From an uncultured Campylobacterales bacterium (lineage in GTDB: Bacteria > Campylobacterota > Campylobacteria > Campylobacterales > CACVAW01), in assembly GCA_902727925.1 (NCBI GenBank), contig CACVAW010000040.1:5075-69074 (forward strand): 64,000 nt of DNA, given 5' to 3'. A program made the position numbers and the translations under genes. The notes beneath the pieces are model-generated. The model searched no databases. It was not told the DNA's origin and saw only the letters and a program-made list of their open reading frames with translations. Below are positions 4,306 through 63,334 of the stretch, one piece after another (the first letter of the stretch is position 1; each line of letters begins with the position of its first letter).

Positions 4306-4926
4306 TTATATCCTATTTAATATTTGAGTTAAGTCTTTTGTATCTATTGTGATCGTTGCGGCGTCTCTAAGTATAGGCTTAGCACAAAAAGCCACTCTTG
4401 TCTCAGCATACTTAAACATAGAAAGATCATTTGCCCCGTCACCTACGGCTATAGTATTTGCCTTATTAATATTTAATAATTTTTGAAGCTTTTGAATTAA
4501 CACTCCTTTACTATATCCAAACATCATCTCTCCACCTACATTACCACTAAGCTTAGCATCCTGTACTTCAAATGTATTAGCAAAATCGGCGTCACATCCA
4601 AGCTTCTGGCTATAATAAGAGGTAGCATTAACAAATCCACCACTAAATATAACTACAGTGTATCCTCTTTGCTTAAGTTCACTTATACACTCTGTTGCTC
4701 CGTTCATCAAAGGTAAGTTATGACAAATTTCATTTATTTTAGACTCTTTTATACCTTTAAAAAGTTTAGCTCTTGAAACTAAACTCTCATAAAACTCTAA
4801 TTTGCCTTGCATCCCTCTTTCTGTAATCTTTGCAACTTCTTTACCTAATCCTAACTCATCTGCGATAATGTCCATGGTCTCACCATCCATTAAGGTAGAA
4901 TCAAAATCAAATACACACAACTTCAT
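4306..4926 (-). CDS. serB: phosphoserine phosphatase (HAD family)
   Basis: HAD motif I is FDFDSTL, the SGG motif is present, and motif IV is GDGANDL. 206 aa. Confidence 0.8.
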   Translation of the reverse strand: MKLCVFDFDSTLMDGETMDIIADELGLGKEVAKITERGMQGKLEFYESLVSRAKLFKGIKESKINEICHNLPLMNGATECISELKQRGYTVVIFSGGFVNATSYYSQKLGCDADFANTFEVQDAKLSGNVGGEMMFGYSKGVLIQKLQKLLNINKANTIAVGDGANDLSMFKYAETRVAFCAKPILRDAATITIDTKDLTQILNRI

Positions 4927-4996
4927 ACCATACTCCCAAGTTTATTCAATTCTGATATAATAACATCTATTTTTTATAAAGGCTATTTTAATTATT

Positions 4997-7776: not shown

Positions 7777-9012
7777 TTAATCCTTCAATATATTTTGTAG
7801 TTTTGTTTTTAGTATCTTTTTACCTGCTTCAACTCCAGGCTGATTATAAGTATTAACTCCCAAAAATTCCCCAACTAAAGAAGTAAGTAATTCATAATAA
7901 TAGATAAGTTTTCCAATTGAACGTTCATTAATATGGTCTATTTCTATAATATCAACGGGAATATCAGATTTGTATAATAAAGACTCAACGATAGAATCAG
8001 CTTGCATATTTATAATCGTTTCAAATTCAAGATTATTAATATTATCTAAACCCTCTAAGAACTTCATCTTAATATCTGGAACCTTTAAATCACTCACAAA
8101 ATCATTAACTTTAATAAATGTAATACTTTTATCTCTTGGTCCATCTTCAATGAGTTGTAAGAATGAATGCTGATCTTTAGGGCCTATTAGTCCTATAGGA
8201 GTAAGTCCTACATTTAATTGTGAATTAGTCTGCTTTTTACCTAGACTCTCACCCCAAAGTTGAACATACCAACTAACAAAATATTTAAGTCTTTCACTAT
8301 ACGCGAATATACAGTTATTAGGATGTTTATCAAAATGACTAGCCATAAAAGATGCTTTTTTCTGTAAAGTTTGATTAATCTCACCATTATTAAAAAATTC
8401 TTTTTTGACTTCATTTGCTCCTGATAAAATTTCTTTTACATCAATTCCTGCTAAAGCTAAAGGGATAAGTCCAACACTTGAAAGTACAGAAAACCTCCCA
8501 CCAATATTAGCTTGAATATTAACTACATTAAACCCTTCATTGTTTGCATACTTTTGAAGATTAGAACCCTCATCTGTAATAAATGTAAAATACTCTTTCA
8601 AATCCAAGTTCAAGCTACACAATTTTTGATAAACATACTTATATATTGATATCGTTTCTATAGTATTTCCTGACTTTGAAATTATCATAAAATGAGCTTT
8701 AACAAGATTAAAACTCTCTAACATCTCTTTTAAAAACAAGGGATCGGTACTATCTAGAAAAACCATTCTTTTAGTTAAATTTTCATCATATCTTAAAAAA
8801 TCATATATAGCTTGAATACCTAAGCTACTTCCACCTATTCCTATTATCACTATTGTTTCTATATCTTTATTATCAAATTTCTTTAAATAGTTTTTAATAT
8901 AAGTGATATCTTGATTAGGTAAATCATAATAACCAATAGTATCTTTTTCTTTTACTAATTTATCTGTAGCATCAACAACTTCATTTATATTAAAGTATAA
9001 TTCATTTTTCAT
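7777..9012 (-). CDS. pgi: glucose-6-phosphate isomerase
   Basis: 411 aa. The SIS-domain motif is IGIGGSSLG, followed by GGRFSVLSSVG. It is adjacent to galU. Confidence 0.88.
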   Translation of the reverse strand: MKNELYFNINEVVDATDKLVKEKDTIGYYDLPNQDITYIKNYLKKFDNKDIETIVIIGIGGSSLGIQAIYDFLRYDENLTKRMVFLDSTDPLFLKEMLESFNLVKAHFMIISKSGNTIETISIYKYVYQKLCSLNLDLKEYFTFITDEGSNLQKYANNEGFNVVNIQANIGGRFSVLSSVGLIPLALAGIDVKEILSGANEVKKEFFNNGEINQTLQKKASFMASHFDKHPNNCIFAYSERLKYFVSWYVQLWGESLGKKQTNSQLNVGLTPIGLIGPKDQHSFLQLIEDGPRDKSITFIKVNDFVSDLKVPDIKMKFLEGLDNINNLEFETIINMQADSIVESLLYKSDIPVDIIEIDHINERSIGKLIYYYELLTSLVGEFLGVNTYNQPGVEAGKKILKTKLQNILKD

Positions 9013-9924: not shown

Positions 9925-10825
9925 CCTCTTCTAACAGCTCTTTTGCTCCAAGAGTAATAAAAAGTTTTGCTATACTAGCTCCTGCTTCTTTATAATATTT
10001 TTTATCAAAACAAATTTTTTGTTTGATATATTTCATACTTTTAACTCCACCAACAATCGCAAGTATTTCTATTTTATCATCAATCAAGCAAGCATTTATG
10101 CCTATTGGTGTTTGACATCCACCCTCTAAATATCTTACAAAATCTCTTTCTATTGTAGTTTCAATAAAAGCTTTCTCATCATTTAAAAATTTAATTTTTT
10201 CTTCATTCCCTACTAAACACTCTATTGCAAGACTAGCTTGTCCCATGGCTGGCACCATTATATTCTTATCTATTCTATGAGTATACTTAACCTCATCACT
10301 AAGCTCAAGTCTATCAATTCCTGCACATGCGAGTATTATTGCGTCATATTCACTGTTTTTAAGCTTTTGTATTCTTGTATTAACATTGCCTCTTAAGTCT
10401 TTGATTATTAAGTCGGGTCTATATAAAAGAAGTTGAAGTTTTCTTCTTTGTGAAGTAGTCCCTACAACTGAATTTTTGGGTAAATTATCCAGAGTCTCAT
10501 ATTTTTGGCTTAAAAACATATCTCTAACATCTGCTCTAGTAGTAATTGCTCCTATCATAAAACTCTCAGGTAAAACAACAGGAATATCTTTTAAGGAGTG
10601 TACAGCGATATCTGCTTTGCCATTAAGTATAGCAATTTCAAGTTCTTTTGTAAAAAGACCTTTACCACCTATTGCTGCGAGTGATCTATCGAGTATCTCA
10701 TCACCTCTTGTACTGTACTCTTGTACTGTCACTTCGCAATTATATTTGTCTTTTAATTGTTTTTGTATATTGTAAGATTGCCAAAGAGCCAGCTTACTGG
10801 CTCTTGATGCTATATTTATTTCCAT
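9917..10825 (-). CDS. hemC: hydroxymethylbilane synthase (porphobilinogen deaminase)
   Basis: Motifs are ASRASKLALWQ, HSLKDIP, LRGNVNTR and the C-terminal GGCQTPIG. Confidence 0.9.
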   Translation of the reverse strand: MEINIASRASKLALWQSYNIQKQLKDKYNCEVTVQEYSTRGDEILDRSLAAIGGKGLFTKELEIAILNGKADIAVHSLKDIPVVLPESFMIGAITTRADVRDMFLSQKYETLDNLPKNSVVGTTSQRRKLQLLLYRPDLIIKDLRGNVNTRIQKLKNSEYDAIILACAGIDRLELSDEVKYTHRIDKNIMVPAMGQASLAIECLVGNEEKIKFLNDEKAFIETTIERDFVRYLEGGCQTPIGINACLIDDKIEILAIVGGVKSMKYIKQKICFDKKYYKEAGASIAKLFITLGAKELLEEAI

Positions 10826-10837
10826 ACTATGAGAGTA

Positions 10838-11638
10838 TTATTTAATCAAACTTGCATAATCTCTAGTAAACTCACCATTTACAAAGATTGCAGGTGTTCC
10901 ACTAATAGAAAGATTGTTTGCTAAATCCATATCAGCTTGAAGTTTTTTATCCAAACCTTCAATATCTTTCATTACTAGGTTTGTACCAACCTGAGCGTTA
11001 TATGCTTTTAATAACTCGTCATCCAAGTTAGGACTCAAATCAAAATCTGCTAAATAAGCTTTTTTTACAGCACTTAGATTATTGTTTTTAATAATATCAG
11101 CGATTATAAGCTTGCTTATAAATTTTGCTTTTGGATGCATCTTAAGAGGATAGTGATAATAATATAAAGCAATTTTATCTACATTTTTTTCTGCATATGT
11201 TATTAACTCAGGTATAGTTCTTTTACAAGATGGACATCTTGGATCTGAAAAAACTACTATTTTATTTTTTGCAGTTGCTTTTCCTGATATCAAATGAGCA
11301 TCATTATAAATACTTTTTGGCAAATCTGGATATGTACTCATTTTTAAATCTTGCTTAGTAGCCATATCTATAAAGCCTGTACTAAGAAACTTACCATTAG
11401 AAAAAACTTTTTCAGGAGCTTCAAAAATCTCACCTGTATTTTTGTCTTTTAACTTAAACTTCACAAAGTAAGCTTTATAGTCACCTAACCCAGCAACCTC
11501 TTTACTTCCAACTATATCAACTGATATCAACTCAACATATTTATTGTATTTCATAATTTCTGTGAAATACTCTTTTAGTTTAGCTTCAAAAGAAAACAAC
11601 GAACTAATTACAAACAACAAAGAAAACAAAATTTTCAT
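10838..11638 (-). CDS. periplasmic thiol:disulfide interchange protein (DsbA/DsbC-like thioredoxin fold)
   Basis: Signal peptide, a CPSC active-site motif (FSDPRCPSCKR) and a GTP cis-Pro loop near the C-terminus. Confidence 0.7.
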   Translation of the reverse strand: MKILFSLLFVISSLFSFEAKLKEYFTEIMKYNKYVELISVDIVGSKEVAGLGDYKAYFVKFKLKDKNTGEIFEAPEKVFSNGKFLSTGFIDMATKQDLKMSTYPDLPKSIYNDAHLISGKATAKNKIVVFSDPRCPSCKRTIPELITYAEKNVDKIALYYYHYPLKMHPKAKFISKLIIADIIKNNNLSAVKKAYLADFDLSPNLDDELLKAYNAQVGTNLVMKDIEGLDKKLQADMDLANNLSISGTPAIFVNGEFTRDYASLIK

Positions 11639-57044: not shown

Positions 57045-57078
57045 AAGTCTAAGTGCTAAATCATTAGTACTTAGACTT
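57045..57078 (+). terminator. leuB terminator hairpin
   Basis: AAGTCTAAGTGCT-8 nt-AGTACTTAGACTT forms a 13-bp stem with one G-U pair, followed by CTTTTAT. Confidence 0.6.
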
Positions 57079-57181: not shown

Positions 57182-57380
57182 AACATCCTAGTATAAGTTA
57201 TGCTGCTTGATTATTGAGATATTTTTGTGAGGAAATAATAAGTCACAAAGTAATATAAAAATGTAGAGTGTAGCTTGACACTTTTAGTGTGAGCTTTAAC
57301 ATTTTAGCATTTATTACAGCTTAGTTTTAATAAAGTTATACAAAAATATCGTTATAATAAATTTGTAAGTAGGAAGCTCA

Positions 57381-57839
57381 ATGTATAGTTTTGAAATTGA
57401 AAAAAAGGTGCAAGGCAAAGAAAGCAAAAATTCTTTGTTTATATATATAGTATCTTTTTGTTGTTTGGGGGCTTTATGTATTGGGTACTTTTTCTTTGAT
57501 ATGCAAAATAGCTCTAATAAAGAAGCTATAAGTAATGAAGAAATTTCTTATAAAAAACAATCTATACGCAAGATAGATGAAGAAATAAAAGAGATTGATA
57601 GTAAAAATAAAATAATAAATGCTGTTAATACAAATAATTTGATGATATTAAAAAAGCTTAGTTTAATTCCGCAAAAAGATATTATAAGTATTTCTATCAA
57701 AGAGAAGTCTATAGAAGTAAAAGGTAAAGATATAAATCAAAGTGGGCTTCTTTATAAAGCAAAACTTGATGAAGTATTTTTAAATACTAGATATACAAAA
57801 GAGGATAATGAAACTTTTTTGATAGAGGTTTATGAATGA
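57381..57839 (+). CDS. bitopic membrane protein, PilN-like topology
   Basis: AGGAAG lies 4 nt before the ATG. One TM (LFIYIVSFCCLGALCIGYFFF), a coiled coil and a small C-terminal domain. 152 aa. Confidence 0.7.
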   Translation: MYSFEIEKKVQGKESKNSLFIYIVSFCCLGALCIGYFFFDMQNSSNKEAISNEEISYKKQSIRKIDEEIKEIDSKNKIINAVNTNNLMILKKLSLIPQKDIISISIKEKSIEVKGKDINQSGLLYKAKLDEVFLNTRYTKEDNETFLIEVYE

Positions 57840-58309
57840 GTTTATTAATAAAAATGTTTCTTATACTTGGGGTTATTGTATATATCTTTGTTTTTACTTA
57901 TGAAGATGATATTAAAAAATACAAACAAAATATCAAAAGTCAAAACATAGCTAAGCAGGAATTAAAAAATATTAGTAAAACAGAACTTCTCAAAAAAGAG
58001 TTTTTATATAATAAAAAAGAACAAAATATATTTAATATTGCTAGATTTTCACAGAATTCAAAAGATGAGTTACTGAGCTTTACTAGTAGATACTTTGATG
58101 ATATTAAGATGAAAGATATCTCAAGTGATATATCGTCATTTCAAGTTAAGAGTGATGATATGAGTAAGTTTTATTATTTTATTGAAGATTTGGGATACTT
58201 TAGATCAGTTGTAGAAGTACTTAATGATATTGAGATTGTAAGGGGTGATAATAGTTTTGATATAAGCTTTAAGCTTAAAACTTATAAAGATAGAGTGATT
58301 GCAGAGTAA
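57836..58309 (+). CDS. bitopic membrane protein, PilO-like topology
   Basis: ATGA overlap with the upstream gene. N-terminal TM (MFLILGVIVYIFVF), a coiled coil and a C-terminal alpha/beta segment. 157 aa. Confidence 0.7.
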   Translation: MSLLIKMFLILGVIVYIFVFTYEDDIKKYKQNIKSQNIAKQELKNISKTELLKKEFLYNKKEQNIFNIARFSQNSKDELLSFTSRYFDDIKMKDISSDISSFQVKSDDMSKFYYFIEDLGYFRSVVEVLNDIEIVRGDNSFDISFKLKTYKDRVIAE

Positions 58310-58312
58310 TCT

Positions 58313-58885
58313 ATGAGGTGTTTGCTATGTCAGTCATGGTCGCTGAGATATATATGCAAAACTTGCGAGGAACTGCACCTCAAACCAAGTTTACAAAAAA
58401 GAGTATTACCAAATGGACTAGAAGTCTATTATTTTTATAAATATAAAGAGATAGAAGAGTTAATCAAGTCAAAATATTTTTTTATAGGATATTTCATATA
58501 CCGTACTTTGGCTCGTCTTAGTTTTAAAGAGTTTAGCAAGAGCTTTCTTTTTGACGAAAAAGTATATGCTTTTGCTTGTGACGCAAGTATCAAAAACGGT
58601 TATTCTAATACTTCACTTCTAAGTAGATATCTAAAATCAAATACAATAAAACCTCTTTATAATAAACTAATTTCTACTACAAATATTAGCTACGCAGGTA
58701 AAACTCTAGATTTTAGACTACGCAATCCAAAACAATTTGAGTATAAATTCAAATCAAACATAAATGCAATACTTGTAGATGATACTGTAGTGTCTGGAAC
58801 GACCTTGTCACAAGCGGAAAAAGAGTTAGCTAAATATAATGTGAATGTTTTGTTTGCTATTACTTTATGTGATGCAAAAGAGTAA
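58313..58885 (+). CDS. comFC: ComF-family competence protein (ComFC / CtsW-like phosphoribosyltransferase-fold)
   Basis: The N-terminal zinc-finger-like motif is CLLCQ...CKTCEE. The C-terminal PRTase motif is ILVDDTVVSGTTL. 190 aa. Confidence 0.85.
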   Translation: MRCLLCQSWSLRYICKTCEELHLKPSLQKRVLPNGLEVYYFYKYKEIEELIKSKYFFIGYFIYRTLARLSFKEFSKSFLFDEKVYAFACDASIKNGYSNTSLLSRYLKSNTIKPLYNKLISTTNISYAGKTLDFRLRNPKQFEYKFKSNINAILVDDTVVSGTTLSQAEKELAKYNVNVLFAITLCDAKE

Positions 58886-58886
58886 T

Positions 58887-61394
58887 ATGAAGCTAATAGA
58901 GAATCAAAAATTATTTCTTATTGATGAACTGAAGAAAAATCTATTTGAGTGTAAGAAGTTTTATTTCAATGTGGCTTTTATGAGTTTTTCTGGGGTGCAA
59001 CTTTTGTTAGAAAGCTTGCATCAAAGTAGAGGCAAAATATTGACATCTTCATATCTTGGGTTTACAGATGTTAAGTCACTAGAAGTTGTGAATGATATTA
59101 CGGGTATTGAACTAAAGATATTTATCACAAAAACCCAAGGTTTTCACTCCAAGGGCTATATCTTTGAGTATGAAAATTATTATAAAATAATAATAGGATC
59201 GTCAAATCTAACTTCAAGTGCCTTGAAGTCAAATATTGAATGGAATGTAGAGATTATAGAAAAAAAAGATTCTGTGTTTCTAGGAGAAGTACTTGATAGC
59301 TTTGATTCTTTATTTACACAAGCTAATGATATAACCCCTGAGTTTTTGGGTAGCTATAGAGAATATATAAAAAGTTTGATACAAAAGCCTTTTGAGTTTG
59401 TGTCTAAAAAAATCATCCCTAATAATATGCAAATAAAAGCACTTAATAATCTAAAAGAATTAAGAACTGAGAATAAAACAAAAGCTCTTTTGATAGCTGC
59501 AACGGGAAGTGGTAAGACATACTTAAGTGCTTTTGATGTGAAAGCTTTTGCTCCTAAGAAATTTTTGTTTTTGGTGCATAATAAGAGTATATTGACTCAG
59601 GCAAAAAGAGCGTATGAAAAGGTGATAAACGAAGAAATGGGTCTTTATACAGGTGAGAGTAAATCGAACGCTCCTTATTTGTTTGCTACTATTCAAAGTA
59701 TGAAGAAATTTTATAGTAGTTTTGCAAGAGACTATTTTGAATATATAGTTGTAGATGAAGCACATAGGTCAGTTACTCAGAGCTATGATGAGGTGCTTAA
59801 TTATTTTAAGCCTCAGTTTTTGCTTGGTATGAGTGCTACGCCGTATACTAAAATATATGCTAGGTATGATAATATTTGTTTAAATGTAGGCCTTAAAGAA
59901 GCTTTAAAAAGAAATTTTGTATCGCCTTTTCATTATTATGGTATTAGTGATGATACTGATGTCTCGGGTAGCATCAAAGAACTTTCAAGTAAGTTAAGTG
60001 TACATAAAAGAGTAGATTTTATTATCAAAAAGATGCAGTTTTTTGGCTATGATGGAGATGCTAGAAAAGCACTTGGATTTTGTGTTGATATCAGTCATGC
60101 TAAGTATATGTCAGACCAGTTTAATTCCATGGGTATTGCATCAGCATATTTGTCTGGTGAAGACAGTATACACAAAAGAGAGTCTTATATAAAGAGACTT
60201 GAAAATGCAGAACTAGAAGTACTTTTTGTGGTTGATATATTTAATGAGGGAGTTGATATCCCTTGTATAAATACGGTGCTATTTCTTAGACCTACTGAAT
60301 CGATGGTGGTATTCGCTCAGCAACTCGGACGTGGTCTTCGTAAAGCTAAAGGCAAAGAGTTTGTAACAGTACTTGATTTTATCGCTAACTATGATAGAAG
60401 TTTTATGATAGTCTTAGCTCTAAACTCAGGGCTAATAGGAAGTAAAAAAGCACTTATAAAAGAGTATAAAAACAACTTTTATGGTTGTCATATATCTATG
60501 GACAGAGTGGCTGAAGAACTGATATTAAAAAAACTAGAAAGCACAAACCTAAATACAAAAAAATATTTACTACAAGAATACAAAGAATTAAATTTATTTA
60601 ATAAAACACTTAGTATCGGTGATATATCTAATATGGGGTTTGATAATACAGTATATAGAATCATCAAGGTATATGGTAGCTATTATCACTTTTTGAGTCT
60701 TACTCAAGATATTAAATATAGTGAAGATTTTTTGGATTTTGCCAAACAAATCAGTAGATTACTACCTATAAAAAGAGAAGATGAGTTTGTAGTTCTCAAA
60801 AATCTAATTAATAAAAATATTGAAGATGGATACATATATGCAAAAGAGTTTTTAAGTGGTAAGTATAAAGATAGTAGACAAAAATTAACGGTATTAAACA
60901 GTAATTTTGGTTTTTCAAAAGAGTTTAAAAGTGTGGTAAAGAGCTACAAAAAAGAGATTTTAGAACTTCTTGATTTTGGACTATCAAAATATGAAGAGAT
61001 AAAAGATGATAGGAAAATAGGAGATTTTTATACAAATAAATATTATACTCTTTTTGATGTATCACTTATTGCTAAGTATAAAAAAACTCTTTCATCGTTT
61101 AGAGGAAGAGGGCTTATTCATTATGAAGGTATATATTATTTGTTTGTAAATCTTAATGATAATAGTAAATATGAAAATACTTTGATAGATAATACGTTAA
61201 GATGGCATATAAAAGAAAAAATAAGTTCAAACATAGTAAAAAACATCATTAATAGCAATAAAAGAATATATCTATTCGCACGTAGAGAAAAAAAAGTTGA
61301 TGGTATTATTATGGAGTATAAGTTTTACGGTGAGCTTAGATATGTTAATCATATTCAAAATGAATTGATATCGTTTGATTTGAAAATAATTTAG
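58887..61394 (+). CDS. PLD-family nuclease / SF2 (ResIII-type) helicase / DUF3427-type C-terminal domain protein
   Basis: I prefer the ATG at 58887, 1 nt after the comFC stop, over the track start at 58845. The HKD motif is FHSKGYIF...IIGSSNLT (His codon 59145). Walker A is AATGSGKT (59496-59519) and DEAH is at 59754-59765. MSATP and QQLGRGLR follow, then a roughly 250-aa tail. Confidence 0.88.
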   Translation: MKLIENQKLFLIDELKKNLFECKKFYFNVAFMSFSGVQLLLESLHQSRGKILTSSYLGFTDVKSLEVVNDITGIELKIFITKTQGFHSKGYIFEYENYYKIIIGSSNLTSSALKSNIEWNVEIIEKKDSVFLGEVLDSFDSLFTQANDITPEFLGSYREYIKSLIQKPFEFVSKKIIPNNMQIKALNNLKELRTENKTKALLIAATGSGKTYLSAFDVKAFAPKKFLFLVHNKSILTQAKRAYEKVINEEMGLYTGESKSNAPYLFATIQSMKKFYSSFARDYFEYIVVDEAHRSVTQSYDEVLNYFKPQFLLGMSATPYTKIYARYDNICLNVGLKEALKRNFVSPFHYYGISDDTDVSGSIKELSSKLSVHKRVDFIIKKMQFFGYDGDARKALGFCVDISHAKYMSDQFNSMGIASAYLSGEDSIHKRESYIKRLENAELEVLFVVDIFNEGVDIPCINTVLFLRPTESMVVFAQQLGRGLRKAKGKEFVTVLDFIANYDRSFMIVLALNSGLIGSKKALIKEYKNNFYGCHISMDRVAEELILKKLESTNLNTKKYLLQEYKELNLFNKTLSIGDISNMGFDNTVYRIIKVYGSYYHFLSLTQDIKYSEDFLDFAKQISRLLPIKREDEFVVLKNLINKNIEDGYIYAKEFLSGKYKDSRQKLTVLNSNFGFSKEFKSVVKSYKKEILELLDFGLSKYEEIKDDRKIGDFYTNKYYTLFDVSLIAKYKKTLSSFRGRGLIHYEGIYYLFVNLNDNSKYENTLIDNTLRWHIKEKISSNIVKNIINSNKRIYLFARREKKVDGIIMEYKFYGELRYVNHIQNELISFDLKII

Positions 61395-61403
61395 GAGAAT
61401 AAT

Positions 61404-62366
61404 TTGTTTAAAAAAATAGAATTTGATTTTAATATTGGTGTTTACTATGCGATACTCTCAATAGTGCTTTATACAATGAGAGATGTACTAATAAAGTCTT
61501 ATATATCTTTACCCTCAATTGAAATACTTTTTTTCAGTAGTATTTTGGGAATAATCTTGATATTTCTTTCACTTAAACATACATCTTCTAGTTCTATATG
61601 TAAAAAAGAATATAGAAATAAAGCTCGTAAAATGTTGGTATTTAGAGGTGTAATGGGCTTTTTGTCTTCTGCTGCATTTTTTTATTGTATAACTCATACT
61701 ACTTTTGTTAATACTATTGTTTTTATGCAGTCTTCTGCTTTATTTGCATCACTATTTATGTTTATACTTTTTAGAGAAAAGCTATCATTAATACAAATTG
61801 CAGCTATTTTTGTTGGGCTTGTTGGTATTATTATGATAGTAAGTCCAAGTGGTATTAGTGTGGATAAGGTTAGTTGGGTTGGTTTAATATGTTCTATTAC
61901 AGGGGCAATTGCTTTTATGAGTGTAAGAGAACTTAGAAAGTATTATGGTGCAAGAACTATAGTTTTAGCGTTTTTGGTAGCAAACACTATAGGTAGTGGA
62001 TTTTGTATTATTATGGCTTATATAGTTGATATACCATCAATAGACTTTTTGTTCCAAAAATTTGTTATGCCAGAGATTAGTTTGATATATATATATTTAT
62101 TGCTGATTGCTTTTCTTAATGCTTTGTCTCAAATTTATAAAACTAAAGCATTTGCAGTTGCTAAAGTTGGAGTTGTAGGAGTTGTTTCATATTTAAGAGT
62201 TCCTATGACTTTATTTGTAGGAGTGTTTTTATTAGGAGATGATTGGCCTGTTAGTACAGTGTTTATTGGTATATTATTTGTTACTATTTCTTGTGTTATG
62301 GTGTCGTATATGAGTGAAGATGACAAAATAGACAAAGTATTTAGAAAATATGAACGTTCAGACTAA
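61404..62366 (+). CDS. DMT-superfamily (EamA-like) transporter
   Basis: TTG start 6 nt after AGGAG. About 10 hydrophobic helices in two EamA-like halves. 320 aa. Confidence 0.8.
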   Translation: MFKKIEFDFNIGVYYAILSIVLYTMRDVLIKSYISLPSIEILFFSSILGIILIFLSLKHTSSSSICKKEYRNKARKMLVFRGVMGFLSSAAFFYCITHTTFVNTIVFMQSSALFASLFMFILFREKLSLIQIAAIFVGLVGIIMIVSPSGISVDKVSWVGLICSITGAIAFMSVRELRKYYGARTIVLAFLVANTIGSGFCIIMAYIVDIPSIDFLFQKFVMPEISLIYIYLLLIAFLNALSQIYKTKAFAVAKVGVVGVVSYLRVPMTLFVGVFLLGDDWPVSTVFIGILFVTISCVMVSYMSEDDKIDKVFRKYERSD

Positions 62367-62578: not shown

Positions 62579-62764
62579 TTAAGCAATTTTTTTATAAAAA
62601 GATTTTTCAAAATCATTTGGTGATTGATAATCAATTGTCGAATGTAACCTAGTAGAATTGTAAAATAATTCTATGTACTCAAAAATTGCCAATCTTGCTT
62701 CATCTCTAGTTTGATAAGTTTTCAATTGAATTGACTCTTTTTTAATAGAGTAAGAAATCAACAA
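62579..62764 (-). pseudogene. IS3-family transposase (OrfB, rve domain) C-terminal fragment
   Basis: [39 protein letters not shown] is the conserved IS3 OrfB tail. Everything N-terminal of about 62765 is missing. A candidate terminal IR begins TGGTCAGAATGAAGTTCCCCC at 62518. Confidence 0.75.
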
Positions 62765-63334
62765 ATCAAAGACAAAAATAAAGTATATTCACTACATGAA
62801 CAAGATGTATATGTCATAACAAAAGGTAAAGATCATAAGAAGTATGAATATGGTACAAAAGCTTCTATTGTAACAACAATGAGTAGTAACATAATAGTAG
62901 GAGTATCGTGCCACAGTAAAAATGAACATGATTCAAAAACACTAGAAGATGCACTAACTTCAGCAAATAAAAATAGAACCAAGCCTATCCTTGAGGCTAT
63001 ATGTGATAGAGGATATAGAGGGAAAAAAGAAGTACTAGGTACAGCTATTTGTATCCCTGATACTCCTTGCAAAACAGACTCAAAATATCAAAAAGAACAA
63101 AAGCGTAAGAAGTTCCGGCGTAGGGCTGCAATTGAACCTATAATTGGTCATTTGAAGTCTGATTATAGGCTTTGTAGAAATTATCTCAAGGGGTTTATTG
63201 GAGACCAGATAAACTTACTAATGGCTGCTTGTGCTTGGAATCTTAAGAAGTGGTTAAATCTCTTCTTGTGCCATTTATTTTATGCTTTATTCTTAGTTTT
63301 TAGAGTCAAATTATTCTTTAAATATAATTTTTAA
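62765..63334 (+). pseudogene. IS5-family DDE transposase C-terminal fragment
   Basis: [30 protein letters not shown]...CDRGYRG...RRRAAIEPIIGHLKSDYRLCRNYLKG is the conserved IS5-group core. The N-terminal half is absent. The frame opens only at 62735. Confidence 0.75.

What the first reader, a model, noticed from the sequence alone, without database searches (positions are those of the whole stretch)
58313..61394. comFC immediately followed by an 835-aa PLD-nuclease / SF2-helicase / DUF3427-type gene
The ComF-family gene stops at 58885. An ATG at 58887 opens an ORF that carries three elements in order:
- one HKD phospholipase-D nuclease motif (FHSKGYIF...IIGSSNLT);
- a complete ResIII-type SF2 helicase core (AATGSGKT, DEAH, SAT, QQLGRGLR);
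- a long C-terminal tail of the kind that accompanies PLDc+ResIII+Helicase_C architectures (DUF3427).

That architecture looks restriction- or defence-like. Yet the gene is packed with 1-nt spacing behind a DNA-uptake gene. This echoes the Firmicute comFA (helicase)-comFC pair in reversed order. Gram-negative and epsilonproteobacterial transformation machines have no recognised ComFA equivalent.

I see two readings, and I am not aware that either has been described. A nuclease-helicase may have been recruited to process incoming DNA. Alternatively, a defence-type enzyme may be wired into a competence operon to police it.
Basis: partly seen in the sequence, partly recalled or inferred. Interest (0 to 1): 0.68.

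Follow-up and report, generated by a model that had tools for sequence, protein, structure and literature searches.

The report
SauUSI-type restriction gene inserted beside comFC
The 835-aa gene is a divergent member of the known SauUSI family of methylated-DNA-cutting (Type IV) restriction enzymes, and it sits next to the DNA-uptake gene comFC only in this one lineage, so the pairing looks like an accident of insertion rather than a new competence mechanism.

Summary
comFC runs 58313-58885. One base later an 835-aa ORF (58887-61394) carries an HKD nuclease motif and a complete DEAH SF2 motor.

- PDB 7clg by sequence, E=6e-117
- Foldseek against 7clg, E=1e-54
- PADLOC mREase_IV, E=9e-120

The C-terminal tail no longer matches Pfam DUF3427, even at E<=10. 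It still aligns with that domain in homologues, and modelled alone it folds like SRA-type 5-methylcytosine readers. It is strongly eroded: it keeps 39% of family-conserved positions against 81-83% in the nuclease and motor, and it lacks the last ~20 residues.

The link to competence is not supported:
- The closest relative (comFC 67% identical) has orfA-orfB-comFC followed directly by the same eamA gene, with no restriction gene between.
- None of 80 other Campylobacterota comFC loci carries a homologue.
- Arcobacter homologues sit next to glucokinase.
- A 1-nt gap is normal in this genome (median same-strand gap 4 nt).

Co-transcription with comFC is likely but incidental. This is a new, divergent member of a known family and of low interest.

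The parts
57045..57078 (+). Terminator-like hairpin after leuB; probable 5' boundary of the transcription unit
   Evidence: Consensus scan, (15-pair stem followed by a T-rich tail). Prediction only.
57275..57302 (+). Best sigma-70-like promoter match upstream of orfA (TTGACA-16-TAACAT, 10 of 12)
   Evidence: Promoter-like matches are not enriched over shuffles (45 against 35.2 +/- 6.6), so this is weak evidence.
57381..57839 (+). orfA, a 152-aa small protein of unknown family that overlaps orfB by 4 nt
   Evidence: no family. Conserved upstream of comF in L005 at 31% identity.
57836..58309 (+). orfB, a 157-aa small protein of unknown family that ends 3 nt before comFC
   Evidence: Conserved in L005 (29% identity) and weakly in L009.
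58313..58885 (+). comFC (190 aa): 4-Cys zinc finger plus phosphoribosyltransferase-like domain
   Evidence: PDB 7p0h (H. pylori ComF) E=4.8e-36 over the full length. 41-42% identity to H. pylori ComF. TIGR00201 comF gives only a weak hit.
58887..59381 (+). SauUSI-like protein, residues 1-165: PLD/HKD nuclease domain (H87, K89, N107, E118 kept)
   Evidence: Pfam PLDc_2 27.1 bits. Family-invariant residues are retained. 83% of family-conserved columns are kept.
59382..60416 (+). SauUSI-like protein, residues 166-510: SF2 DEAH translocase (motifs I, II, III and VI intact)
   Evidence: Pfam ResIII 2.9e-38 and Helicase_C 1.4e-11. 81% of conserved columns are kept.
60417..61001 (+). SauUSI-like protein, residues 511-705: alpha-helical coupler, shortened (43 family-occupied columns deleted)
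   Evidence: Alignments A1 and A3. Helical in the AF2 model. Corresponds to SauUSI coupler residues 618-805 (PMC7913695).
61002..61394 (+). SauUSI-like protein, residues 706-835 plus stop: eroded SRA-like target-recognition domain. It lacks the last ~20 residues of the family and has Asn764 in place of the base-contacting Asp.
   Evidence: No Pfam hit at E<=10. 39% of conserved columns are kept. The tail-only AF2 model matches the SauUSI TRD, SUVH6 and KRYPTONITE SRA domains, AbaSI and LpnPI. Only 21 weak hits among 1.84 billion representatives.
61404..62366 (+). eamA-family transporter gene. In the nearest relative it lies directly 3' of comFC. Its AGGAG ribosome-binding site overlaps the stop codon of the restriction gene.
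   Evidence: Pfam EamA. 47% identical to the gene after comF in L005. Sequence context.
62579..63334 (.). Two transposase fragments: rve_2 tail on the - strand at 62579-62764 and DDE_Tnp_1 fragment on the + strand at 62879-63334. These are insertion-sequence debris just beyond eamA.

Best explanation
ORF 58887-61394 encodes a divergent member of the SauUSI family. These are single-polypeptide, ATP-dependent, modification-dependent (Type IV) restriction endonucleases.

Mechanism, inferred by homology with SauUSI and not shown here:
- Two N-terminal PLD/HKD domains dimerise to form one nuclease site.
- The C-terminal SRA-like domain flips out and reads a modified cytosine in foreign DNA.
- This switches on the DEAH SF2 motor through the helical coupler.
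- The translocating enzyme then cleaves the DNA.

The gene was acquired by this lineage as a single-gene insertion into the short spacer between comFC and eamA. No terminator intervenes and the genome is tightly packed. The gene is therefore probably read through from the orfA-orfB-comFC promoter, but that is a by-product of where it landed and not a functional coupling to DNA uptake.

The recognition module (coupler plus TRD) has diverged far more than the catalytic modules. The enzyme either has an altered or relaxed modified-base specificity or is losing target recognition.
For: Family assignment:
- PADLOC mREase_IV PDLC03658, E=9.1e-120.
- phmmer against PDB gives SauUSI 7clg, E=5.8e-117, over residues 9-809.
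- Foldseek of the AF2 model gives 7clg at E=1.4e-54 over about 870 columns. The next hit is the Type ISP enzyme LlaBIII at 7e-20.
- Thousands of PLDc_2+ResIII+Helicase_C+DUF8090+DUF3427 homologues at 40-44% identity.
- Nuclease and ATPase invariant residues are retained.
- The tail-only model matches the SauUSI TRD (2e-5), SUVH6 SRA bound to methylated DNA (3.7e-4), KRYPTONITE, AbaSI and LpnPI.
- No methyltransferase is adjacent, as expected for Type IV.

Insertion and lineage specificity:
- L005 (comFC 67% identical) has orfA-orfB-comFC followed by the eamA orthologue (47% identity) after a short AT-rich spacer.
- L006 has comFC followed by gyrA.
- 0 of 80 GTDB Campylobacterota comFC loci (63 with at least 2.6 kb downstream, 66 with at least 2.6 kb upstream) contain a homologue.
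- The downstream neighbour of comFC varies. It is AsmA-like in 15 loci (my reading of the sequence), gyrA in 10-11, with many singletons including an integrase-like and a transposase-like ORF.
- No defence family hits the 67 downstream neighbours, apart from H. pylori, which I added deliberately.
- Homologues elsewhere lie after glucokinase in Arcobacter, between PTS and NUDIX genes in C. difficile, and near NERD and Mrr genes in Salipaludibacillus.
- The adjacency is real and not an assembly artefact. Two independent assemblies of the same species show it.

Spacing: the median same-strand gap is 4 nt, 24 of 44 gaps are 5 nt or less, and about 95% of the window is coding. There is no terminator-like site between 57078 and 62421.

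Domain-specific erosion: window identity relative to within-family identity is 0.80 (PLD), 0.80 (ATPase), 0.57 (coupler) and 0.43 (TRD).
Against: - No biochemical or expression data exist for this protein. Modification dependence is inferred only from homology.
- The Pfam DUF3427 and DUF8090 models fail on the tail. The TRD lacks the family's C-terminal ~20 residues and carries Asn at the position of SauUSI Asp-858. Target recognition may therefore be lost or changed.
- No insertion scars such as direct or inverted repeats flank the gene. Its GC content (0.293) equals the genome's (0.296). The direction of the event (gain here versus loss in L005) rests on parsimony from one close relative plus the phylum-wide absence.
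- Only one relative closer than 60% comFC identity was available.
- H. pylori also has a restriction system (Type IIG) immediately 3' of comFC. This is a second, independent comFC-restriction adjacency.
Confidence: 0.82

Rival explanations
1. Competence-coupled restriction. The Type IV enzyme is deliberately embedded in the comFC transcription unit, so that a nuclease which screens modified DNA is made together with the uptake machinery and polices incoming DNA.
For: - 1-nt spacing, and no terminator-like site between orfA and eamA.
- H. pylori independently has a Type IIG restriction-modification system 34 nt after comFC.
- SauUSI is reported to cut ssDNA in vitro, the form in which transforming DNA enters (bioRxiv 10.1101/2022.12.11.519956).
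- An R-M gene under competence control has a precedent in dpnA (PMC3573125).
Against: - The adjacency is confined to one species-level lineage. It is absent from the nearest relative and from 80 other comFC loci.
- None of 67 other downstream neighbours is a defence gene.
- Tight spacing is the genomic norm.
- H. pylori carries many R-M systems (my own background knowledge), so one next to comFC is unsurprising.
- The recognition domain of this copy is eroding rather than being conserved.
Confidence: 0.1
2. A ComFA-like motor. The SF2 helicase has been recruited as the missing Gram-negative equivalent of ComFA, pulling or processing ssDNA together with ComFC.
For: - A helicase is adjacent to comFC, echoing comFA-comFC.
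- No ComFA orthologue is known in Gram-negatives (PMC9005727).
- The TRD is decaying while the motor and nuclease are kept, which would fit a change of function.
Against: - The protein is a full-length SauUSI homologue with an intact HKD nuclease.
- The closest helicase relatives are restriction and repair motors (EcoAI HsdR, RadD, LlaBIII), not ComFA.
- The gene is absent from every other Campylobacterota comFC locus examined, including naturally competent Helicobacter and Campylobacter. It cannot be a general solution.
- An active PLD nuclease on incoming DNA would work against transformation.
Confidence: 0.03
3. A decaying, non-functional remnant. The gene has lost target recognition and is on the way to becoming a pseudogene.
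For: - The TRD keeps only 39% of conserved positions and the coupler 50%. 72 family-occupied columns are deleted and the C-terminal ~20 residues are missing.
- Pfam models fail on the tail.
- No other sampled protein shares this tail variant.
Against: - An uninterrupted 835-codon ORF persists in a 29.6% GC genome.
- All nuclease and ATPase catalytic motifs are intact.
- The tail still models as an SRA-like fold.
- The Asp-to-Asn change is shared with intact, DUF3427-positive homologues (P0002 and the Arcobacter proteins), so it is a subclade trait.
- The gene is identical in two other samples.
Confidence: 0.05

Closest known systems
SauUSI (S. aureus USA300; PDB 7clg), an ATP-dependent Type IV modification-dependent restriction endonuclease (PMC3141236, PMC7913695)
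   Same: - Same domain order in one polypeptide: PLD/HKD nuclease, DEAH SF2 translocase, helical coupler, C-terminal SRA-like TRD.
- Alignable over residues 9-809 (E=6e-117), and the best fold match.
- Catalytic H, K, N and E residues and helicase motifs I, II, III and VI are conserved.
- No partner methyltransferase.
   Different: - 835 aa against 953 aa, and about 30% identity.
- The coupler and TRD are shortened and the C-terminal ~20 residues are missing.
- The position of SauUSI Asp-858, which contacts the flipped cytosine, is Asn764.
- The TRD is not recognised by Pfam DUF3427.
- Specificity and activity are untested.
- The host is a Campylobacterales bacterium, not a Firmicute.
DUF3427/DUF8090-containing PLDc_2-ResIII-Helicase_C proteins of Clostridia, Bacilli and Arcobacter (e.g. 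P0002, P0095 Arcobacter arenosus)
   Same: - Closest sequence relatives, at 41-44% identity over the full length.
- The window protein shares the Asp-to-Asn TRD variant with P0002 and the Arcobacter proteins.
   Different: - Those proteins are 918-970 aa and score DUF3427 at about 1e-58. The window protein scores nothing.
- None of the contexts examined has comFC next door. Note that the P0002 contig starts 28 nt before the gene, so its upstream neighbour is unknown.
ComFA-ComFC of Firmicutes (competence DNA-uptake ATPase and its partner)
   Same: An SF2-type ATPase gene lies adjacent to comFC on the same strand.
   Different: - The gene order is reversed.
- The window protein carries a nuclease and a modified-base reader and belongs to a restriction family.
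- The adjacency is not conserved.
- There is no evidence of membrane association or interaction with ComFC.
H. pylori comFC (HP1473) locus with a Type IIG R-M system downstream; pneumococcal competence-induced dpnA
   Same: These are examples of restriction-modification genes that neighbour competence genes (H. pylori) or are regulated with them (dpnA, PMC3573125).
   Different: - The enzyme classes are unrelated: a Type IIG methyltransferase-endonuclease and an ssDNA methylase.
- dpnA protects incoming DNA rather than cutting it.
- No regulatory link has been shown for the H. pylori or window loci.

Membership tests
SauUSI-family Type IV restriction endonuclease | N-terminal PLD/HKD nuclease domain with catalytic His, Lys, Asn and Glu | tested here: met
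   Pfam PLDc_2 at 27.1 bits (cut-off 27.0), which is marginal. H87, K89, G104, S105, N107 and E118 sit at family-invariant columns. The region aligns to the SauUSI nuclease domain.
SauUSI-family Type IV restriction endonuclease | SF2 DExH helicase-like ATPase with two RecA lobes | tested here: met
   ResIII 2.9e-38 and Helicase_C 1.4e-11. Motifs AATGSGKT, DEAH, SAT and QQLGRGLR are present. Fold match to 7clg.
SauUSI-family Type IV restriction endonuclease | Alpha-helical coupler between the ATPase and the TRD (Pfam DUF8090 in homologues) | tested here: inconclusive
   The region aligns with homologues and is helical in the model. It has 43 deleted columns and keeps 50% of conserved positions. 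PF26350 is absent from the precomputed domains of P0001.
SauUSI-family Type IV restriction endonuclease | C-terminal SRA-like target-recognition domain (Pfam DUF3427) | tested here: inconclusive
   The profile test fails: no Pfam hit at E<=10. The fold test passes: the tail-only AF2 model (pLDDT 65.7 overall, 70-88 in the beta-rich region) matches the SauUSI TRD at 2e-5, SUVH6 SRA at 3.7e-4, and AbaSI and LpnPI. Motifs SSFRGxG, W773 and R799 are kept. The base-contacting Asp is Asn764.
SauUSI-family Type IV restriction endonuclease | Solitary gene with no cognate methyltransferase | tested here: met
   The neighbours are comFC and an EamA transporter gene. No methyltransferase family was hit among the five locus proteins.
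SauUSI-family Type IV restriction endonuclease | ATP-dependent cleavage of 5mC/5hmC-containing DNA | not testable with these tools
   Needs purified protein and modified or unmodified substrates, or restriction assays in vivo.
ComFA (competence DNA-uptake ATPase) | Stand-alone DEAD-box-type ATPase, conserved partner of ComFC and required for transformation | tested here: not met
   The protein is a four-domain restriction-enzyme homologue. No ComFA-named family appeared among the NCBIfam hits at E<=0.01; I did not verify that such a model is in the library. The gene is absent from 80 of 80 other Campylobacterota comFC loci. The requirement for transformation cannot be tested here.
ComFC (for the upstream gene 58313-58885) | N-terminal 4-Cys zinc finger plus C-terminal PRT-like domain, homologous to H. 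pylori HP1473 | tested here: met
   7p0h at E=4.8e-36 over residues 1-190. C3, C6, C15 and C18 and the motif LVDDTVVSGTT are present. The TIGR00201 hit is far below its cut-off (34.5 against 233.55 bits), as it is for Helicobacter-type ComF proteins in general (inference).

The most novel reading that the evidence does not exclude
The Type IV enzyme is genuinely co-expressed with ComFC from the orfA-orfB-comFC promoter and acts as a gatekeeper on DNA taken up by transformation. This could work through the methylation-independent ssDNA endonuclease activity reported for SauUSI, with the eroded TRD reflecting a shift away from modified-dsDNA sensing. On this reading the independent comFC-restriction adjacency in H. 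pylori hints at a recurrent, selected arrangement.
Probability: 0.07. Interest if true: 0.55.

Novelty: new member of a known kind. Interest (0 to 1): 0.15.

Why it matters
It matters little beyond annotation. The public record calls the protein a 'Helicase conserved C-terminal domain-containing protein'. It is better described as a SauUSI-type Type IV restriction enzyme homologue with a degenerate SRA-like recognition domain.

Two modest points could interest specialists:
- The Campylobacterota subclade (window protein, P0002, Arcobacter proteins) carries Asn in place of the cytosine-contacting Asp. This may mark a different modified-base specificity.
- This copy shows how the recognition module of a Type IV enzyme can erode while the nuclease and motor stay intact.

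The hoped-for link to natural transformation, a Gram-negative ComFA substitute or a competence-wired defence, is not supported by comparative genomics.

Tried and rejected
- Insertion scars. I looked for direct or inverted repeats flanking 58887-61394. Only chance-level AT-rich matches turned up. Aligning the junctions with the L005 spacer shows homology stopping exactly at the comFC stop codon.
- Compositional evidence of foreign origin. The gene's GC (0.293) and GC3 (0.225) cannot be told apart from its neighbours', so this is uninformative.
- dN/dS within the species. L003 and L004 have no differences at all in the 1.4-1.8 kb of the gene they cover, so there is no power.
- Exact look-up of the 835-aa protein in the contig index. 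Not on record.
- Context of the best homologue, P0002. Its contig starts 28 nt upstream of the gene, so the upstream neighbour is unknown.
- An exhaustive search with the tail alone, hoping to find a family of short-tail variants. Only 21 weak hits came back, all tails of ordinary SauUSI-like proteins or fragments.
- The 849-aa reading from ATG 58845. Rejected because homologues begin at the position of ATG 58887.
- Promoter scan. Matches are not significantly above shuffles, so the promoter assignment stays tentative.
Full report
**Observation**

The ORF map and raw sequence confirm the layout.
- A 190-aa ORF runs 58313-58885 and ends in TAA.
- One base follows.
- ATG 58887 then opens an 835-codon ORF ending at 61394.
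- The EamA-family gene starts 9 nt later at 61404.

A longer reading from ATG 58845 is possible. Homologues begin at the MKLI that corresponds to 58887, so 58887 is the supported start.

**The upstream gene is a real ComFC**

- It matches the H. pylori ComF crystal structure 7p0h over its full length (E=4.8e-36).
- It is 41-42% identical to H. pylori ComF proteins.
- It keeps the four zinc-finger cysteines and the PRT motif. Both were shown to be needed for H. pylori ComFC function in PMC9005727.

**What the 835-aa protein is**

Pfam finds ResIII (2.9e-38), Helicase_C (1.4e-11) and a borderline PLDc_2 (27.1 bits against a cut-off of 27.0). Three further searches identify the family.
- PADLOC gives the Type IV methyl-directed restriction model PDLC03658 at E=9.1e-120.
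- The best solved structure by sequence is SauUSI (7clg, E=5.8e-117), aligned over residues 9-809.
- An AlphaFold2 model built on 68 sequences (mean pLDDT 74) matches 7clg by Foldseek at E=1.4e-54 over about 870 columns. The runner-up, the Type ISP enzyme LlaBIII, scores 7e-20.

The large protein database returns thousands of homologues at 40-44% identity. Nearly all are 918-975 aa long with the domain string PLDc_2-ResIII-Helicase_C-DUF8090-DUF3427. The only identical entry comes from an 'uncultured Campylobacterales bacterium' MAG.

SauUSI is a characterised enzyme.
- It is a homodimer built of a PLD nuclease (residues 1-191), an SF2 motor, a coupler (618-805) and an SRA-fold TRD (806-953) (PMC7913695).

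The window protein is therefore a member of this known family. Its mechanism is inferred by homology, not shown here.

**The tail**

The profile test fails. The last 335 residues hit nothing in Pfam even at E<=10, while two homologues score DUF3427 at about 1e-58.

The tail is nevertheless homologous to that domain.
- MAFFT aligns it with the DUF3427 region and conserves LPxKR, SSFRGxG, W773 and R799.
- A model of residues 690-835 alone finds modified-cytosine readers as its best PDB matches:
  - the SauUSI TRD (2e-5)
  - SUVH6 SRA bound to methylated DNA (3.7e-4)
  - KRYPTONITE
  - the 5hmC-specific AbaSI
  - LpnPI

The tail is also strongly eroded.

| Domain | Family-conserved columns kept (>=90% conserved) | Window identity relative to within-family identity |
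|---|---|---|
| Nuclease (PLD) | 83% | 0.80 |
| ATPase | 81% | 0.80 |
| Coupler | 50% | 0.57 |
| TRD | 39% | 0.43 |

- 72 family-occupied columns are deleted in the coupler and TRD.
- The last ~20 residues of the family are missing.
- An exhaustive HMMER pass with the tail alone over 1.84 billion representatives found only 21 weak hits. The best was E=5e-11 at 34% identity.

The residue equivalent to SauUSI Asp-858 is proposed to hydrogen-bond the flipped cytosine. Here it is Asn764. The same Asp-to-Asn change occurs in the closest homologue P0002 and in the Arcobacter proteins, which are otherwise DUF3427-positive. It is therefore a subclade trait and not a sign of decay unique to this copy.

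**Is the adjacency to comFC meaningful?**

The evidence says no.

1. The nearest available relative lacks the gene. L005 (comFC 67% identical) has the same two small upstream ORFs and comFC. A short AT-rich spacer follows, and then the orthologue of the window's eamA gene (47% identity), with no restriction gene between. A more distant relative has comFC followed by gyrA. Two other assemblies at 99% comFC identity share the window's arrangement. The junction is therefore real but confined to one species-level lineage.
2. The gene is absent from other comFC loci. A scan of one genome per GTDB species returned 80 Campylobacterota comFC loci. tblastn with the 835-aa protein found no homologue in any of them. 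63 loci have at least 2.6 kb downstream and 66 have at least 2.6 kb upstream.
3. The gene after comFC is highly variable.
   - It is an AsmA-like gene on the opposite strand in 15 loci (my reading of the sequence).
   - It is gyrA in 10-11 loci.
   - GrpE, YggS-like and sensor kinase genes occur too, with many singletons.
   - The singletons include an integrase-like ORF (L080) and a transposase-like ORF (L011).
   - By contrast, the upstream neighbour is lepA in 38 of 72 loci.
   - A PADLOC scan of 67 downstream neighbours found no defence gene.
4. Homologues elsewhere sit in unrelated contexts.
   - In Arcobacter arenosus and a related metagenome the gene follows glucokinase.
   - In C. difficile it lies between PTS and NUDIX genes.
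   - In Salipaludibacillus it lies in a region with NERD and Mrr genes.
5. The 1-nt spacing carries no information in this genome. The median same-strand gap in the window is 4 nt, 24 of 44 gaps are 5 nt or less, and about 95% of the window is coding.

**What remains of the coupling idea**

- No terminator-like site lies between the hairpin after leuB (57045-57078) and the end of eamA. The best promoter-like match is at 57275-57302. Read-through transcription of orfA-orfB-comFC-restriction gene-eamA is therefore likely, though it is only predicted.
- H. pylori comFC is itself followed 34 nt later by a Type IIG restriction-methyltransferase plus S subunit.
- SauUSI has been reported to cut ssDNA without ATP or methylation.

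These points keep a competence-coupled reading alive at low probability. Each also has a mundane explanation:
- the genome is compact;
- comFC lies at the end of an operon next to a variable site;
- H. pylori is rich in R-M systems (my own background knowledge).

The concept is not unprecedented either, since pneumococcal dpnA is competence-induced (PMC3573125).

A ComFA-like role is very unlikely. The protein is a complete restriction enzyme with an intact nuclease, and it is missing from all other Campylobacterota examined, including naturally transformable ones.

**Origin**

No repeats or scars flank the gene. Its base composition matches the host's. Its closest relatives are all about equally distant at 41-44% identity, so the donor cannot be named. 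Two transposase fragments lie just beyond eamA, which shows past mobile-element activity nearby.

**Verdict**

This is a correctly observed gene pair. The large gene is a divergent, tail-eroded member of the known SauUSI Type IV restriction family, inserted by chance next to comFC in one lineage. It is a new member of a known kind and of low interest.

Noticed in passing
window 57381-58309 (orfA, orfB); L005 9058-10004: Two small ORFs (152 and 157 aa) with hydrophobic N-termini overlap each other (ATGA) and end 3 nt before comFC. They are conserved with comFC in the nearest relative at only 29-31% identity and match no Pfam or NCBIfam family. In most other Campylobacterota comFC is preceded by lepA instead (38 of 72 loci). 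They could be lineage-specific partners of comFC.
   Followed up: partly
window 57934-58375 versus L003 and L004: All 11-13 nucleotide differences between the window and two same-species assemblies fall in a 440-nt stretch covering the orfB 3' end and the comFC 5' end. The next 2.3 kb, including 1.8 kb of the restriction gene, is identical. This suggests a recombination patch or a recent sweep.
   Followed up: no
window 62579-62764 (-) and 62879-63334 (+): Two truncated transposase ORFs (an rve_2 integrase-core tail and a DDE_Tnp_1 fragment) lie 200-1000 nt beyond eamA. This is insertion-sequence debris next to an otherwise housekeeping region containing carB, ileS, nrdA, pheT, gatA, adk and leuB.
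   Followed up: partly
L087 7001-10869 (H. pylori): H. pylori comFC is followed 34 nt later by a Type IIG restriction-methyltransferase (PADLOC E=0) and a specificity subunit, then polA. This is a second, unrelated restriction system immediately 3' of comFC.
   Followed up: partly
L089, L090 and L091 at 7842-8240; L092 at 4537-4941; L001 at 10574-11435: A small NUDIX_4 gene lies directly next to the SauUSI homologue in C. difficile and in Salipaludibacillus. The Arcobacter locus has MazG-like and nucleoside deoxyribosyltransferase genes two genes away. These may be a nucleotide-pool sanitising partner that keeps modified dNTPs out of host DNA. The window locus has no such neighbour.
   Followed up: no
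window 61176-61178 (codon for Asn764); P0002, P0095 and P0072: The TRD Asp that contacts the flipped cytosine in the SauUSI model (D858; Asp in at least 90% of homologues) is Asn in the window protein, in its best homologue P0002 and in the Arcobacter proteins. This suggests a subclade with a different modified-base specificity.
   Followed up: partly
window 61388-61406: The TAG stop of the restriction gene lies inside the AGGAG Shine-Dalgarno sequence of eamA (TTTAGGAGAATAATTTG). The ORF ends about two codons after its last residue that aligns with homologues. The family's final ~20 residues may have been lost when the gene was packed against eamA.
   Followed up: no
L080 2804-4003; L011 8663-9439: In two other Campylobacterota genomes the gene immediately after comFC looks, by my reading of the sequence, like a tyrosine integrase (L080) or an IS200/REP-type transposase (L011). 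This fits the 3' flank of comFC being a permissive insertion site.
   Followed up: no
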